Origin: the human T2T-CHM13v2.0 reference genome, Homo sapiens
Direction: 5' to 3' (one strand)
Length of the DNA: 64,000 nucleotides
NCBI RefSeq assembly: GCF_009914755.1
Contig: NC_060936.1
Numbering within the stretch: the first letter of the stretch is position 1; each line of letters opens with the position of its first letter. The notes under the pieces were generated by a model that saw only the letters and a list, made by a program, of their open reading frames with translations, was not told the DNA's origin and made no database searches. The translations under genes were made by a program, and so were the position numbers. Below are positions 8,302 to 57,227 of this stretch, in pieces.

Positions 8302-8980
<679 letters not shown>

Positions 8981-11699: not shown

Positions 11700-11765
11700 C
11701 AGTAGTCCCACCTTATCCACAATTGTAATTTCTGTGGTTTCAGTTACTTGTGGTCAACCATGGCT
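11700..11765. mobile_element. Tigger3/MER8-type terminal fragment
   Basis: CAGTAGTCCCACCTTATCCAC...GGTTTCAGTTACTTGTGGTCAACCATGG TIR end only. Confidence 0.65.
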
Positions 11766-37869: not shown

Positions 37870-38229
<360 letters not shown>

Positions 38230-38703: not shown

Positions 38704-39446
38704 TAGAAAAACTGGATCCAGATTTCAGTCTTGGCCTCCTTTATTATTAGCAATTTATCCCCTCCATGAAATGAAATCAATTCATGATTGATTAATCAAT
38801 TAGAAAATAATCTCTTCCTCTTTATTTCAATTTCCTTCCAAGTTACAATTTTTTTTTACTGTTTTGAAACAAACCTTCTGAAGCATTGATGTCCATTTTG
38901 CATTTGCTATAGTCTTTCTCAGCATCAATTAAATTCTCAAGCCATTAAACCCTAAATTTTATTTTGACCATAATACAAAAATATTGTATTAAGGTTAACA
39001 ATGACCTTGATTTTTCTGCATTTGTACTCTCATTTTTTTCACCTACCAATCTCACCATTGCACTTTGCTCTGTCTACACCAGTTTCTCTTTTTTCTTATA
39101 ACCCTCTTTTATAGTACTTTCCTTTACTCTGCAACATTCTTCCTCAGAATTATTTGCTTGTGCTTCATTTTGAGATTAGCTATTAATGTTTTCCTTCTCT
39201 TTTCAGTTAAAATGATGTTTTTGATCACTCCATCTTATTCCATGACTTGAAATATGTTAGTGATTCTGTGTGTTTATTTCCAGTGATCTTTCTCTTGAAT
39301 ATTAGAATGATATTTCTAATTGTCATGTTGACATCTACACCCGAATACCCGACAAGCCCCTGGAAAATGAACATGTCCAAATTGCACTTAATATCTTTCT
39401 TGCCTCACTCATCCCACTTATGTACTATATTTAATTAAGGTTACTA

Positions 39447-39650
39447 ACAGATGCAGTGGTACATGCCTGAATCCCAGCACTTTGGGAGTCTGAGGCGGGT
39501 GCATCACCTGAGGTCATTCGAGACCAGCGTGGCTACTAAAAATACTAGCTGGGCATATTGGCAGTTGCTTGTAATCCCAGCTATTCGGGAAGCTGAGGCA
39601 GGAGAATCACTTGAACCCAGGAGGCAGAGGTTGTAATGATCTGAGATCGG
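39447..39650 (+). mobile_element. Internally deleted, 3'-truncated AluS remnant
   Basis: Alu collinear sequence with three short internal gaps, no 3' end and no poly(A). Confidence 0.85.
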
Positions 39651-39952
39651 GGGTATTACCATTTACATTGACTCCAAAACCAGAATCCATAACTCCTCTT
39701 TCTAGCTCCTCCTCACACCAGTCTCATCGGATTCTGTCAGTGCCTCTTTTGAAGTATTTCTAAGTACAATCCTTTCTCCCTATCACTGTTTTACCACTAC
39801 TACCACCATCATTACTCCTTCATGGATGATAATATTATGTCTAAGTCAGTAAATCACTCTTATTTTCTTTCTCTCCTGTCAACTGCACCCTCATCCCCAT
39901 TTCTATTTCTATCTTGATGCTTCCAGATAATCATTTGAAAAAAACTAATTTA

Positions 39953-40470
39953 GCAATTTTATGTCTAGAAAATTCTGTCCTACTAAAATGATGAGAACAA
40001 ATTTTAAAAAAAAGGCAGAAAGAGCAACAGTTAACTTTTCTTTCTATCTCCAAACCTTACCCACTTACCCCCTACAGCCTATTTTGTATACCCTTAGCTC
40101 TAGATTAGAACAGATACTAGATTTTTCAAGTCTTCCAAATTTTCTCTGGAGTAGGGCATCATTAAATTGTGTGATTTCAAAGAGGATCATCGTAGACAAA
40201 ACAAGGCTTAATGCATACTAAGCTGTGAACACAACTAGTAAGTATGTTCCTTAGTTTTAATGTATTTCTATTGCATCTTAGAAGGAATTCTTCTAAAATT
40301 ACAGGTAATTGCATGGAATAAAGCAAATATGAAACCTTAAAAGACTTTCTGAAGGGATACTGCACAAAGATAATATAGTGTTCAAAAATGTTTAAAAGTT
40401 ATACTTTTGAAAGTGCACTGGTATTTACAAATTCTCTTAGGGCAGAAATTGGCAGAAAATATGATTTTGT
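39953..40470 (+). repeat. Long inverted repeat, left arm (518 bp)
   Basis: Reverse complement of 41891-42409; ~20 differences by manual alignment; 40141-40334 identical. Confidence 0.97.
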
Positions 40471-41339
40471 CTGAAGACAAAATAAATTGTCTTTTTTTTT
40501 CGCTAGAGTCCTTATTGCCTATAAGATTAAATTAAAGCTCTTTATCAAATATTAATGCTTAGATCACTTTTCATGGTTAAAATTTCTCATAACTTAGTAG
40601 TAACATTAACATTTAAGTCTAGAAGTGATAATATCTCTGGGAAAAAAACTTTTATTTTCCCATTTAGTCTAAGTCTGGGAAAAGGAAGAAGCTACGAAGT
40701 GCTTCCATAGGCATACAAGATTTGGACAGCTTAAAGAAATCTGTAGACTACCATACTTACCTCCATCTTTCAGGAAGTTTTATAGTCAGGTCTTGCCTTT
40801 ACTCCTGTTATGGACTCCTTTAATACTGGTTTGAAATTTTTGTAAGACTTTGCAATTAAACATAGTAATCACTCTCAATGGACAGCATATGTGTTTATCA
40901 TCCCAGTAACTCCAGACTCCTGTTTTCTCTCTGGCTCCTAGAGTGATGTTGGCTGTCATAATCTTCCGAGAGCATACAATTATGTGATTGAATTCATTAC
41001 TCTGAACCATTCAGAAGTCTGCTATTGATGACTGTTCCTGATTTACCTAGCTTAAATTTGTAGCAATATTGACTAAGGTTTGTATCTTTCATGCGAAACT
41101 TCAGTCAAGAGTGTTCTACTGGGTCTTCTACAACTACTTTCCAACCTAAATCTTTACTTTCAACCCTATCCTCTTATCACAAGTCAAACTTCTAATCACA
41201 TTAATCTTCAAAATGCACCTCTAATTATCCTTGTTATGAAGAATTTCTCTTCAGCAGAGTTACTGGACTTTTCTGTTTCTTCAGCATTCTGTTTATGGTG
41301 TTTAGCATCTCTAGTAGGGCAGCTGGGACATTGTATTTT

Positions 41340-41515
41340 AATTAGCAGCTCACATGTCATTCTCCTAGCCTAGACATTGAGTGCCTGAAGAGTAACACTG
41401 TGCCCTTTACATCTCTTTATCTCAAGCACATAAAATAGCCCCTACAACACGAGTATTTCATATTTGCTTAGTGGGGAATAAAAGGGATTGTATTACTGAA
41501 TACCTGAATGAATAA
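41340..41515 (+). mobile_element. L2 3' end within the IR spacer
   Basis: CTAGACATTGAGTGCCTGAAG...ATATTTGCT...TGAATGAAT tail. Confidence 0.5.
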
Positions 41516-41599
41516 AAATGACCTTGTATGGTATGTTTACTATTATTCCACTTTGGAGCTAAGCACATCATCTTTTTATAGATGGCTTTGCCATATTTT

Positions 41600-41762
41600 A
41601 AGTCCTTTCAAAAGTACTTGATATTCATAACCTCACTGTGAAGCAGACAGAGCTGATATCATTGTCTCATTTTAGAGATGAGGGCATTGGTGTTTAGAGC
41701 AAAAGAGACTAAATAAACTAAGATAAAAAACTACGCTAGAACCCAGATCTCCTGACTTCATG
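41600..41762 (-). mobile_element. MIR within the IR spacer
   Basis: CATTTTAGAGATGAGGG...CTAGAACCCAGATCTCCTGACT. Confidence 0.65.
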
Positions 41763-41890
41763 AATAGTAAAATATAAAGTGACATTCTAGTTTATGTTAT
41801 CTATTACATATAGACAAGGGGAAATTGAGTTGTCTACTACCAAATAAGGTGAACTATCTATTTTGAATTCTCAGTAGAGAAAGAAGAAAT

Positions 41891-42409
41891 ACAAAATCAT
41901 AATTTCTGCCAATTTCTGCCCTGAGAGAATTTGTAAATACCAGTGCACTTTCAAAAGTACAACTTTTAAACATTTTTGAACACTGTATTATCTTTGCACA
42001 GTATCCCTTCAGAAAGTCTTTTAAGATTTCATATTTGCTTTATTCCATGCAATTACCTGTAATTTTAGAAGAATTCCTTCTAAGATGCAATAGAAATACA
42101 TTAAAACTAAGGAACATACTTACTAGTTGTGTTCACAGCTTAGTATGCATTAAGCCTTGTTTTGTCTACGATGATCCTCTTTGAAATCACACAATTTAAT
42201 GATGCCCTACTCCAGAGAAAGTTTGGAAGACTTGAAAAATCTAGTATCTGTTCTAATCTAGAGCTAAGGGTATACAAAATGGGCTGTAGGGGGTAAGTGG
42301 GTAAGGTTTGGAGATAGAAAGAGAAGTTAACTATTGCTCTTTGTCTCTCTCTTTTTAAAATTTATTCTCATCATTTTAGTAGGACAGAATTTTCCAGACA
42401 TAAAGTTGC
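41891..42409 (-). repeat. Long inverted repeat, right arm (519 bp)
   Basis: Reverse complement of 39953-40470. Confidence 0.97.
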
Positions 42410-42838
42410 GTGGAAAGGTGCACTACAAAGACAATTGAAAGTTTTTTTAGAATATTAACGATCTTGGATCCTGCACCATTCCAGTTGTATCATAATACAG
42501 TGGGGAATAATAACAAGTAAACTGTAATACTATAAAAGTCAAGTTAGGAAGAATTTAAACATAAGATATTTCCTTCTGGTGCTTTATGACTTCCCACTTA
42601 AGTTACTTTCTAATCTGTGGCATGTTGTACTGCTCATTCAAAGGCAATCCATTAATCAACAAAAACCAGTGTGTTCTCCAGAAATCTGTGGCTCTCATTG
42701 TTTGCCCAGAGTACACTGTTATCTTGTCTAAACAAAGTAGTTTCCTGTAAATAACCATACTTTTCCTTCCTTTTTGAAATATACCTGTTCCACATCCCAT
42801 TTCAAGGAATATAATTTTTGTTATGGCACGTATCTAAT

Positions 42839-43173
42839 TGTCTTAGTCATTTTCTATTGTTATAAAAAATACCACAGACTGAGTAATCTATAAAGAAAAT
42901 AAGTTTATTTAGTTCACAGTTCTGAAGGTACTCTCAAGAACATGGCACTGGCATCTGGTGAGGGCCTTCTTGCTGCAGCATGACATGGCAGAAGGCATTA
43001 TATGGCAAGAGAACAAAAGTAAGAGAACCACAGAGAGCTCTCTTTTATAACAAAGTTACTCCAGCAATAACAAACAAACTCTCATGATAGTTAGTGGCAT
43101 TAATTCATTCATGAGGGCAGAGGGATTAAATTCCAGCACAAGAACTTTCGGAGGACACACTTAAACTGTAACA
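42839..43173 (-). mobile_element. MST-family (MSTD-like) MaLR solo LTR
   Basis: TGTCTTAGTC...ATACCACAGACTG...GCATCTGGTGAGGGCCTTCTTGCTG...ATTCATGAGGGCAGAG...AACA. Confidence 0.75.
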
Positions 43174-43564
43174 CTAGCTGATAAAGGTGTTTGCTATTAT
43201 TTTAATGGCTAACAATTCTTACGACAGAAAGAAATCAAAATTTCATTTTTAATTCATATTTCTCCTGGAAAACAATTCTTAAGTAAAATAGATTTCCTTG
43301 TTAATTATTTTTTTAGCTTTATTTATTTATAAACTAACAGTCTTCTATTTTAATGATCAGTTTTATGAATTTTGGTGATTATACACAGTTGTATAACCAC
43401 TACCACAATCAAAATATAGAACAGTTTTATTCCCTTTCAGATGTTTTCTTCCCTTTTTATTGTCTTTCCTCAACCATTGTCTTTAGATATATAATACTGA
43501 TCTGATTTCTGCCATTATAGTTTTGTCTTTGCTAGTATTTTATATAAATGTAATCAAACAGTAT

Positions 43565-44828: not shown

Positions 44829-45193
<365 letters not shown>

Positions 45194-47569: not shown

Positions 47570-49280
47570 GTATTTTTAATTTTTCTGTTATTCTGTTAAA
47601 TTTTATTAATTTAATTCATGAAAAGCTCGTGATTAGGTAATATATTTATGTGATTCAAAAACAAAACTATTTTTAAAATATATTCTGAGAAACATCACTC
47701 CATCTCTGTCCATTCACTTCATTCCACAATTTTTATTAGTTTCTCATTTATTCTTTCACATTTTATGTAAATAAAAGCAAATATGTTTCTACTTAGCACC
47801 TTCCTAATCTTATAAAATGTGGCATAATATGTCCATGATTATGCATCTTGTTTTTTCTTTCTCTTAACAAAAATATTCCCCAAGTCTCTCCATACCTGGA
47901 TTTAGAAAATATTTTAACTGTGTACTTCTTTACTAAATAAAAGACAATTTATTTTGCCGGACTCTTATTGCTGGATACTTAAATTGTTTCCAATCATTTG
48001 TTATCCTGAAGCATGCCACACTTACCAACTTCGTGTGTGTGTGTGTAATGTATATAACATATATGTTACCTATATATAACATATATAACATATATTACAT
48101 ATATAATATATATAACATATATTACATATATAACATATATAACATATATTACATATATAACATATATAACATATATTACATATATAACATATATTACATA
48201 TATAACATATATTACATATATTACATATATTACATATATAGCATATATTACATATATAACATATATAATATATATAGCATATATTACATATATAACATAT
48301 ATAATATATATAGCATATATTACATATATAACATATATAATATATATAGCATATATTACATATATAACATATATAATATATATAGCATATATTACATATA
48401 TAACATATATAATATATATAGCATATATTACATATATAACATATATAATATATATAGCATATATTACATATATAACATATATAATATATATAGCATATAT
48501 TACATATATAACATATATAATATATATAGCATATATTACATATATAACATATATAATATATATAGCATATATTACATATATAACATATATAATATATATA
48601 GCATATATTACATATATAACATATATTATATATAGGATATATTACATATATAACATATATAATATATATAGCATATATTACATATATAACATATATAGCA
48701 TATATTACATATATTACATATATAACATATATAGCATATATTACATATATAACATATATAATATATATAGCATATATTACATATATAACATATATTATAT
48801 GTATATAACATACATAACATATATTATATATTACATGTATATAACATATATGTTATATATTACATGTATATAACATATATAATATATATTATATATTACA
48901 TATACATGTAATATATGTGTATATATGTAATATATGTATATATATGTAATATATATATGTGTATATATATATGACCCAATTTTTTAAATTCCACGATTGG
49001 AATTTCCAGGTCAAAGGGTAAATGCATCTGCAATTTTGGTGAATATTTTCAGATATCTACCTTCTTCAACGGAACTGTTTCATTGTGTATGAGCTGGCCT
49101 CATAGATACAGCAGTTTTCAATTTTTTGGATAGTTTGTTAGTTTTAGAATAAATGTGTTCCTTTTTATATATGTGCAATTTGATATATTTTCATACATTT
49201 GTCCAATCAACTATCTGTTCACATTCTTTGACTATTTTTCCAATGGGTTATTTGTCTTTCACTGTTGATTTCTAGAAGTC
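47570..49280 (-). mobile_element. Old L1ME-like 3' fragment split by the TA-rich minisatellite
   Basis: TTGCTGGATACTTAAATTGTTTCCAA before the array and GGAATTTCCAGGTCAAAGGGTAAATGCAT after it. Confidence 0.55.
48034..48972. repeat. TA-rich minisatellite: 9-bp monomers with 27- and 36-bp higher-order units
   Basis: Monomers ATATATAAC, ATATATTAC, ATATATAAT and ATATATAGC; ten perfect 36-mers over ~48234-48593. Confidence 0.97.

Positions 49281-51396: not shown

Positions 51397-51699
<303 letters not shown>

Positions 51700-55636: not shown

Positions 55637-55975
<339 letters not shown>

Positions 55976-56925: not shown

Positions 56926-57227
<302 letters not shown>

What the first reader, a model, noticed from the sequence alone, without database searches (positions are those of the whole stretch)
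39953..42409. ~518-bp, ~96%-identical inverted duplication around a 1.42-kb spacer
Seen: 39953-40470 is the reverse complement of 41891-42409, with ~20 differences by manual alignment and sharp boundaries. The arms match no young repeat I recognise, so independent transposon insertions cannot explain this identity. Established: inverted repeats of this geometry drive NAHR inversions of the spacer and hairpin formation at replication forks, and they give long dsRNA when transcribed. Inference: this is a small flip-able cassette, i.e. a candidate recurrent inversion polymorphism. Its arms are longer than typical short-read inserts, so it would be easy to miss.
Basis: partly seen in the sequence, partly recalled or inferred. 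Interest (0 to 1): 0.85.

Follow-up and report, generated by a model that had tools for sequence, protein, structure and literature searches.

The report
Small old inverted duplication, unique sequence
Two 518-base copies of a unique, non-coding sequence face each other across 1.4 kb in a gene-poor part of human chromosome 12; the duplication is real and probably tens of millions of years old, but nothing here shows that the middle piece flips between people.

Summary
Window 39953-40470 is the reverse complement of 41891-42409. The arms are 518 and 519 nt, with 18 substitutions and one 1-base indel (about 96.5% identity). The spacer is 1420 bp and the arm ends are sharp. In the whole T2T genome the arm matches only these two places and the spacer only itself, so this is not an interspersed repeat family. 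There is no target-site duplication, Pfam domain or Rfam family.

I read it as an old local inverted duplication of unique sequence, about 15-30 My old on assumed rates. It lies in a 44-kb intron of the predicted lncRNA LOC105369895. All differences sit in the outer and inner thirds of the arms. A 194-bp core is identical (P = 0.002-0.02), which suggests arm-to-arm gene conversion.

The "flip-able cassette / recurrent inversion polymorphism" reading is untested. No second haplotype or primate genome was available. The arms are at the short end of the inverted repeats reported to mediate human inversions. The hairpin-at-forks claim is weak with a 1.42-kb spacer. The dsRNA potential is real in silico only. 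The finding is ordinary to mildly interesting.

The parts
39953..40470 (+). Left arm of the inverted duplication (518 nt, 32% G+C, 1 CpG)
   Evidence: Genome search: 100% self match plus one 96% match on the opposite strand.
40471..41890 (.). Spacer, 1420 nt of single-copy sequence (34% G+C). This is the segment that would invert if the arms recombined.
   Evidence: 1 candidate of the first look, 1 scored, self only. Longest ORF 97 aa, and 0 Pfam families for the 4 ORFs tested.
41891..42409 (-). Right arm (519 nt), the reverse complement of the left arm
40141..40334 (+). 194-bp core of the left arm that is identical to the right arm; candidate gene-conversion tract and the longest uninterrupted homology
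   Evidence: identical runs; P = 0.0022 for a run >= 194 with 19 differences. (P = 0.019 with clustered differences collapsed to 14 events; 0.096 with 10).
42027..42220 (-). The matching 194-bp identical core in the right arm. Coordinates were derived by me from the alignment columns and checked against the sequence.
40464..40483 (.). Perfect 9-bp stem / 2-nt loop palindrome straddling the left-arm/spacer junction (40470|40471); a possible trace of the template switch or break that made the duplication, or chance
   Evidence: it is the only such palindrome in 39000-43500, and 47 occur in the 64-kb window. My arithmetic gives roughly 0.06 that one straddles any of the four junctions.

Best explanation
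This is an old, local, one-off inverted duplication of about 518 bp of unique non-coding sequence. It is a miniature inverted segmental duplication, below the usual 1-kb size bar.

Origin (inferred): a single rearrangement in the primate lineage. One route is a replication template switch or templated insertion that copied one arm in reverse orientation 1.42 kb away. The other is an inversion of the 1.4-kb segment with a staggered break that duplicated one breakpoint. I cannot tell the two routes apart.

Shown: the structure, the uniqueness of arms and spacer, the sharp ends, and the absence of a target-site duplication, coding capacity or known RNA family.

Inferred history: the two copies have since diverged by about 5% in their outer and inner thirds. 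A 194-bp identical core suggests at least one arm-to-arm gene-conversion event. That would mean the arms do meet by homologous recombination in the germ line.

Inferred consequences: the same kind of encounter, resolved as a crossover, would invert the spacer. The locus is therefore a possible low-rate NAHR inversion substrate. It has no demonstrated function and most likely evolves neutrally inside a long intron of a predicted lncRNA.
For: - Geometry and identity.
- Uniqueness: the arm gave 2 of 2 scored candidates and the spacer 1 of 1. A 5-kb query (8191 first-look candidates, 40 scored, 60 matches) found repeats only at 39452-39649 and 42830-43183, both outside the structure.
- Sharp ends.
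- No function signal: no ORF above 97 aa and no Pfam hit. No Rfam family reached its gathering score; the best in-structure hits are 27.4 and 21.4 bits against cut-offs of 46 and 58. No annotated functional element lies nearer than an enhancer at window 81205, outside the window.
- Position: the structure sits in the 33861-78194 intron of LOC105369895.
- Difference pattern: 11 substitutions plus the indel fall in alignment columns 1-189, none in columns 190-383, and 7 in columns 384-519.
- Age: K2P 3.6% overall gives 15-18 My, and about 5.7% at the ends gives 24-28 My, at 1.0-1.2e-9 per site per year (arithmetic; the rates are recalled).
- Origin models in print: inverted duplications of non-repetitive sequence at inversion ends, explained by staggered breaks (abstract of PMC1885836). 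Complex inversions attributed to FoSTeS/MMBIR (passages of PMC6748972 and of the HGSVC preprint).
Against: - No outgroup genome or second human haplotype was available. The age, the direction of the duplication (which arm is the copy), whether the spacer is inverted relative to the ancestor, and the gene-conversion reading are all inferences from one sequence.
- The clustering statistic weakens if nearby differences are treated as single events: P = 0.019 with 14 events and 0.096 with 10. Uneven mutation could also produce it; 5 of the 19 differences sit in 9 columns of a low-complexity A/G run.
- The genome search does not see ancient repeats. A stretch of the spacer that looked MIR-like to me by eye gave only its self match. 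The arms could therefore still contain very old repeat fragments, although that would not change the two-copy result.
- Neutrality is assumed, not tested.
Confidence: 0.75

Rival explanations
1. One reading: the locus is an active flip-flop cassette. NAHR between the arms inverts the 1.42-kb spacer recurrently, so both orientations segregate in humans and short-read studies have overlooked them.
For: - Inverted arms above 90% identity at both ends of a short segment are the architecture of NAHR inversions.
- The 194-bp identical core is compatible with past recombination between the arms.
- Short-read data detect IR-mediated inversions poorly.
Against: - No orientation data of any kind could be obtained.
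- No paper was found naming the locus, its lncRNA or my estimated coordinates.
- The arms are shorter than the smallest NAHR repeat (654 bp) in PMC6748972.
- Repeat length is the main predictor of recurrence, and most recurrent cases have repeats of at least 10 kb.
- The longest uninterrupted identity is only 194 bp. That is near the lower limit for efficient mammalian homologous recombination as I recall it.
- No match to the recalled 13-mer hotspot motif lies inside the structure; the single window match is at 11708.
Confidence: 0.12
2. Functional hairpin-RNA locus: the intron of LOC105369895 is transcribed, the arms pair into a ~510-bp dsRNA, and this acts as an ADAR-editing substrate, a small-RNA source or an innate-immune ligand.
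For: - The full 2457-nt fold has an MFE of -1163 kcal/mol on the lncRNA strand with 509 arm-arm pairs, against -538 to -563 in 5 controls with one arm shuffled.
- It would meet the '>300 bp and >96% paired' class, of which 2,018 are predicted genome-wide, mostly between inverted LINEs (passage of PMC11838218).
- Expressed, structurally stable inverted duplicates have been proposed to be functional (abstract of PMC5398296).
Against: - The gene model is a Gnomon prediction with no paper hit, and I saw no expression, editing or small-RNA data.
- The structure is intronic, so it would be removed by splicing and stay nuclear. The same preprint argues that such dsRNAs rarely reach the cytoplasm.
- No Rfam family matches.
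- The differences between the arms are not obviously compensatory, and no conservation data were available.
Confidence: 0.05
3. A very low-copy DNA transposon or other mobile element with ~518-bp terminal inverted repeats and a 1.4-kb internal region.
For: Sharp outer ends and long terminal inverted repeats around a short unique core are the shape of some non-autonomous DNA transposons.
Against: - The arm matches only these two places and the spacer only one place in the genome.
- No direct repeat flanks the outer ends by eye.
- No transposase or any other Pfam domain was found in the 4 ORFs tested.
- The L1 twin-priming route, which explains about 85% of inversions under 2 kb (abstract seen), requires L1 sequence. 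That would give many genome hits.
Confidence: 0.03
4. Assembly artefact of the reference, such as a chimeric long read folded back on itself.
For: Fold-back artefacts do produce inverted duplications.
Against: - Artefacts give identical arms with little or no spacer. Here the arms differ at 19 positions, mostly transitions, and are separated by 1420 bp of unique sequence.
- The ends are clean, and the sequence lies in ordinary euchromatin.
Confidence: 0.01

Closest known systems
Inverted repeats flanking NAHR-mediated human polymorphic inversions (InvFEST 'HsInv' set; PMC3961182, PMC6748972; HGSVC inversion preprint 10.1101/2021.12.20.472354)
   Same: Two inverted copies above 90% identical bracket a short unique segment. 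The arms exceed the 200-bp criterion used in the preprint.
   Different: - The arms (518 bp) are shorter than the 654 bp-24.2 kb range of PMC6748972.
- They are unique sequence rather than an annotated segmental duplication, L1 pair or Alu pair.
- No second orientation is documented.
Inverted duplications generated together with an inversion by staggered breaks (Drosophila; PMC1885836, abstract read)
   Same: Non-repetitive sequence is duplicated in inverted orientation at the two ends of a segment, with sharp ends and no transposon.
   Different: That model was established by outgroup comparison in flies for large inversions. Here the segment is 1.4 kb, the genome is human, and the ancestral state is unknown.
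Long, highly paired intramolecular dsRNA loci (dsRNAscan, PMC11838218; the earlier study by Barak et al. 2020 was seen only as a reference entry)
   Same: The predicted duplex is over 300 bp and over 96% paired. The loop length is of the same order as the ~2-kb medians reported.
   Different: Most members of that class are inverted LINE pairs and 88% are intergenic. This one is non-repetitive at my tool's sensitivity and lies in a predicted lncRNA intron. I could not see whether it is in their table, which is a supplement.
Genome-wide 'inverted duplicates' catalogue by Inverted Repeats Finder (PMC5398296)
   Same: It has the same formal definition: two reverse-complementary arms plus a spacer.
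   Different: That catalogue capped spacers at 1,000 nt, so this 1,420-nt spacer falls outside it. Most of its 4.3 million human entries are far shorter.

Membership tests
Segmental duplication (definition recalled: >=1 kb and >=90% identity) | Identity of at least 90% between copies | tested here: met
   96.5% identity
Segmental duplication (definition recalled: >=1 kb and >=90% identity) | Length of at least 1 kb | tested here: not met
   518/519 nt, with no extension beyond the ends
NAHR-mediated polymorphic inversion | Highly identical inverted repeats at both breakpoints | tested here: met
   The arms meet the >=200-bp criterion but fall below the 654-bp minimum of the set.
NAHR-mediated polymorphic inversion | Both orientations of the intervening segment observed among haplotypes or species | not testable with these tools
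   Only the reference haplotype is readable. Reads, other assemblies and supplements are closed. No paper hits.
Interspersed repeat / DNA transposon with terminal inverted repeats | Multiple dispersed copies in the genome | tested here: not met
   Arm: 2 matches. Spacer: 1 match.
Interspersed repeat / DNA transposon with terminal inverted repeats | Target-site duplication at the outer ends | tested here: not met
   The flanks read share no direct repeat. This was judged by eye only.
Interspersed repeat / DNA transposon with terminal inverted repeats | Transposase-like coding remnant | tested here: not met
   0 Pfam families at E <= 0.1 for 4 of the 6 ORFs of at least 50 aa. The two shortest ORFs (50 and 51 aa) were not scanned.
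L1 twin-priming inversion | The inverted segment consists of L1 sequence | tested here: not met
   Arms and spacer are single- or two-copy in the genome.
Long, highly paired dsRNA (>300 bp, >96% paired) | Predicted duplex length and pairing | tested here: met
   509 arm-arm pairs on the minus strand and 506 on the plus strand
Long, highly paired dsRNA (>300 bp, >96% paired) | Both arms present in one real transcript | not testable with these tools
   Only a Gnomon lncRNA model spans the structure. No expression data were available.
Fragile palindrome / cruciform-forming inverted repeat | Arms adjacent or separated by a very short spacer | tested here: not met
   The spacer is 1420 bp. For the spacer dependence.

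The most novel reading that the evidence does not exclude
The locus is an uncatalogued, recurrently flipping 1.4-kb cassette. Its 518-bp unique-sequence arms would be among the shortest repeats known to mediate NAHR inversion in humans. The 194-bp identical core would be the footprint of ongoing arm-to-arm exchange. When the host lncRNA intron is transcribed, it would yield one of the rare non-repeat, near-perfect ~500-bp dsRNA hairpins.
Probability: 0.1. Interest if true: 0.5.

Novelty: new member of a known kind. Interest (0 to 1): 0.25.

Why it matters
If the spacer proved to flip, the locus would help define the lower limit of repeat length and uninterrupted identity for germ-line NAHR inversion in humans. 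It is a clean case for that purpose: unique sequence, no genes, short enough for one long read or one PCR. It would also be a natural test of how gene conversion and inversion are coupled.

As it stands it is one more small, old inverted duplication in a gene desert between ATP2B1 and CCER1/EPYC, with no annotated functional element nearby. Its practical importance is modest. It is a place where short reads can mis-map between arms, and a candidate long intronic dsRNA.

Tried and rejected
- **Hidden longer homology beyond the arms.** An older, larger duplication with a converted core was rejected; flank alignments do no better than shuffles.
- **Repeat family.** Rejected at the sensitivity of the genome search. 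A local sensitive blastn of 39700-42700 against the rest of the window gave only 2 short marginal hits (36 and 61 nt, E = 0.011 and 0.004).
- **Coding or RNA-family content.** None found.
- **Hotspot motif.** No match inside the structure.
- **MIR-like stretch of the spacer seen by eye (about 41650-41770).** I tried to confirm it and thereby find an old repeat crossing a junction, which would have shown which junctions are ancestral. Genome and local searches gave only the self match or noise, so the origin models could not be separated.
- **Literature search for the locus.** 'HsInv' + chr12 + inverted repeats gave 0 papers. LOC105369895 gave 0 papers. Six coordinate strings (T2T, plus my hg38 and hg19 estimates) gave 0 papers. 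The hg38/hg19 coordinates were estimated from recalled gene positions and may be off, so that blank means little.
- **Closed supplements.** Inversion call sets and the dsRNA table sit in supplementary files that were closed: Supplementary Data 1 of PMC6748972, Table S1 of PMC3961182, the tables of the HGSVC preprint, and Table S5 of PMC11838218. Any of them may list this locus.
- **Masked-repeat list.** The list in /data shows nothing of at least 100 bp between 38676 and 43645. It also omits an Alu-like piece at 39452-39649, so I did not rely on it.

Full report
**Observation.** The repeat finder returned two colinear pieces: 39999-40470 / 41891-42362 (472 nt, 96%) and 39953-40010 / 42352-42409 (58 nt, 95%). 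A one-base indel offsets them, and 1420 nt lie between the arms. A global alignment of 39953-40470 with the reverse complement of 41891-42409 gives 518 vs 519 nt. There are 18 substitutions (15 transitions, 3 transversions) and one single-base indel, with p-distance 3.47% and K2P 3.6%. The arms end abruptly. Extending the comparison 100-700 bp inward and 100-1000 bp outward gave scores no better than shuffles in 5 of 6 tests. The sixth (outer 100 bp; 16 of 500 shuffles reached the score) is a short A-rich match that is not in register with the arms.

**What it is not.**
- It is not an interspersed repeat. Against the whole T2T-CHM13 genome the arm has exactly two matches, itself and its partner (2 first-look candidates, 2 scored). 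The spacer has one.
- A 5-kb query around the locus (8191 candidates, 40 scored, 60 matches) found interspersed repeats only at 39452-39649 (Alu-like) and 42830-43183. Both lie outside the structure.
- This search does not see very old repeats. A stretch of the spacer that looked MIR-like to me, from memory, gave only its self match. The statement is therefore 'no young or middle-aged repeat family'.
- I saw no direct repeat at the outer ends (by eye).
- The six ORFs of at least 50 aa are at most 97 aa long. The four longest have no Pfam match at E <= 0.1.
- No Rfam family reaches its gathering score.
- These results reject a transposon with long terminal inverted repeats. They also reject an L1 twin-priming inversion, which accounts for about 85% of human inversions under 2 kb according to the HGSVC preprint abstract.
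- An assembly fold-back artefact would not give 19 differences and a 1.4-kb unique spacer.

**Setting.** The window is chr12:90,706,001-90,770,000. The structure lies at chr12:90,745,953-90,748,409, in the gene-poor interval between ATP2B1 and CCER1/EPYC. It sits inside the window 33861-78194 intron of the Gnomon-predicted lncRNA LOC105369895, on the minus strand. No enhancer, silencer or other annotated element lies in the window. The nearest is an enhancer at window coordinate 81205. No paper in the searchable library names the lncRNA.

**Age and history (inference).** The differences are not spread evenly. Eleven substitutions and the indel lie in alignment columns 1-189, none in columns 190-383, and seven in columns 384-519. 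That leaves an identical core of 194 bp (40141-40334 and 42027-42220).
- A run this long arises in 0.2% of random placements of 19 differences.
- It arises in 1.9% of placements if clustered differences are collapsed to 14 events, and in 9.6% with 10 events.
- I read this as probable arm-to-arm gene conversion. Uneven mutation in the low-complexity A/G run near the outer end contributes to the clustering.
- With recalled substitution rates of 1.0-1.2e-9 per site per year, the overall distance gives 15-18 My and the unconverted ends give 24-28 My. With the slower pedigree rate the figures double.
- The duplication is therefore old, probably predating the great-ape radiation. Its long survival argues against strong intrinsic instability.

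**Origin (inference, unresolved).** Two single-event routes fit a unique-sequence inverted duplication with sharp ends.
- The first is a replication template switch or templated insertion that placed a reverse copy 1.42 kb away. This is the FoSTeS/MMBIR type of event invoked for complex human inversions in passages of PMC6748972 and the HGSVC preprint.
- The second is an inversion of the 1.4-kb segment with one staggered break. That duplicates the breakpoint sequence in inverted orientation, as proposed for 17 of 29 Drosophila inversions (abstract of PMC1885836).
- A perfect 9-bp-stem palindrome straddles the left-arm/spacer junction (40464-40483). It is the only one in 39000-43500, and 47 occur in the whole window. 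By my arithmetic the chance that one straddles any of the four junctions is about 0.06, so it is a hint of a stall or switch site and no more.
- The two routes predict different junction continuities in a species that lacks one arm. I could not test this, because no primate genome is reachable here.

**The inversion claim.** By architecture the locus is a possible NAHR substrate. [quoted passage not shown] The same work finds that repeat length is the main driver of recurrence. It also finds that 23 of 32 recurrent inversions have repeats of at least 10 kb. The 24 NAHR inversions of PMC6748972 have repeats of 654 bp to 24.2 kb. Arms of 518 bp with at most 194 bp of uninterrupted identity are at the bottom of that range. 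The recalled 13-mer hotspot motif has no match in the structure. The probable conversion tract is the one positive sign that the arms interact. I found no record of an inversion here. However, the relevant call sets are in supplements that were closed, and my hg38/hg19 coordinates were estimates. The claim is therefore untested. I put a common or recurrent polymorphism at about 0.1.

**The hairpin and dsRNA claims.**
- In double-stranded DNA, cruciform-driven fragility falls steeply with spacer length. Going from 12 to 20 bp gives about a 40-fold drop for Alu inverted repeats in yeast. Widely spaced repeats become dangerous mainly within long single-stranded regions (Introduction of PMC10164571). 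With 1420 bp between the arms, the fork-hairpin claim is weak under normal replication.
- As RNA, the 2457-nt segment folds with 506 (plus strand) or 509 (minus strand) arm-arm pairs. The MFE is -1156 / -1163 kcal/mol, against -538 to -563 in five controls with one arm shuffled.
- That places it among the 'long, highly paired' predicted dsRNAs (>300 bp, >96% paired). A recent preprint counts 2,018 of these in the genome, mostly between inverted LINEs and 88% intergenic (PMC11838218).
- Whether the intron is transcribed is unknown. As an intronic structure it would be expected to stay nuclear.
- The IRF-based catalogue of PMC5398296 capped spacers at 1,000 nt and so would not include this locus.

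**Verdict.** The 'not a transposon' inference is supported. The inversion-polymorphism inference is plausible but unsupported and marginal by class. The fork-hairpin inference is weak. The dsRNA potential is real only in silico. The structure is a new member of a well-known kind (small inverted duplications). It is of modest interest unless population or primate data show flipping.

Noticed in passing
window 48072-48904: An AT-rich tandem array of about 830 bp with a 9-bp unit (92.6 copies, 82% matches) and a 72-bp higher-order period (11.7 copies, 91% matches). It also scores as a weak inverted repeat with itself (48051-48307 / 48603-48859, 70%).
   Followed up: partly
window 39452-39649: An Alu-like fragment of about 200 bp, with many genome hits at 77-78% identity and a sub-threshold Rfam mir-1268 hit at 39546-39597. 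It is absent from the list of masked repeats of at least 100 bp in /data, so that list is incomplete.
   Followed up: partly
window 42830-43183: An interspersed repeat of about 340 bp with dozens of genome copies at 70-81% identity, 420 bp to the right of the right arm. Its family was not identified because no repeat library was on hand.
   Followed up: no
window about 41650-41770: A stretch of the spacer that by eye resembles the core of the ancient MIR SINE. This is recalled and not confirmed: the genome search gave the self match only and the local blastn gave only a marginal 61-nt hit.
   Followed up: partly
window 39953-40470 vs 41891-42409: The substitutions between the arms are 15 transitions to 3 transversions, with only one CpG per arm. 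The ratio is higher than the roughly 2:1 I recall as the genome average. With 18 sites it is not clearly significant.
   Followed up: no
window 37940-38143 with 44919-45122, 51486-51688, 55745-55911, 57053-57220 and 8618-8774: Several inverted Alu-type pairs (157-204 nt, 79-89% complementary) surround the locus at distances of 6.8-29 kb. This is ordinary for human DNA. It means the same lncRNA intron has other, weaker dsRNA-forming pairs.
   Followed up: no
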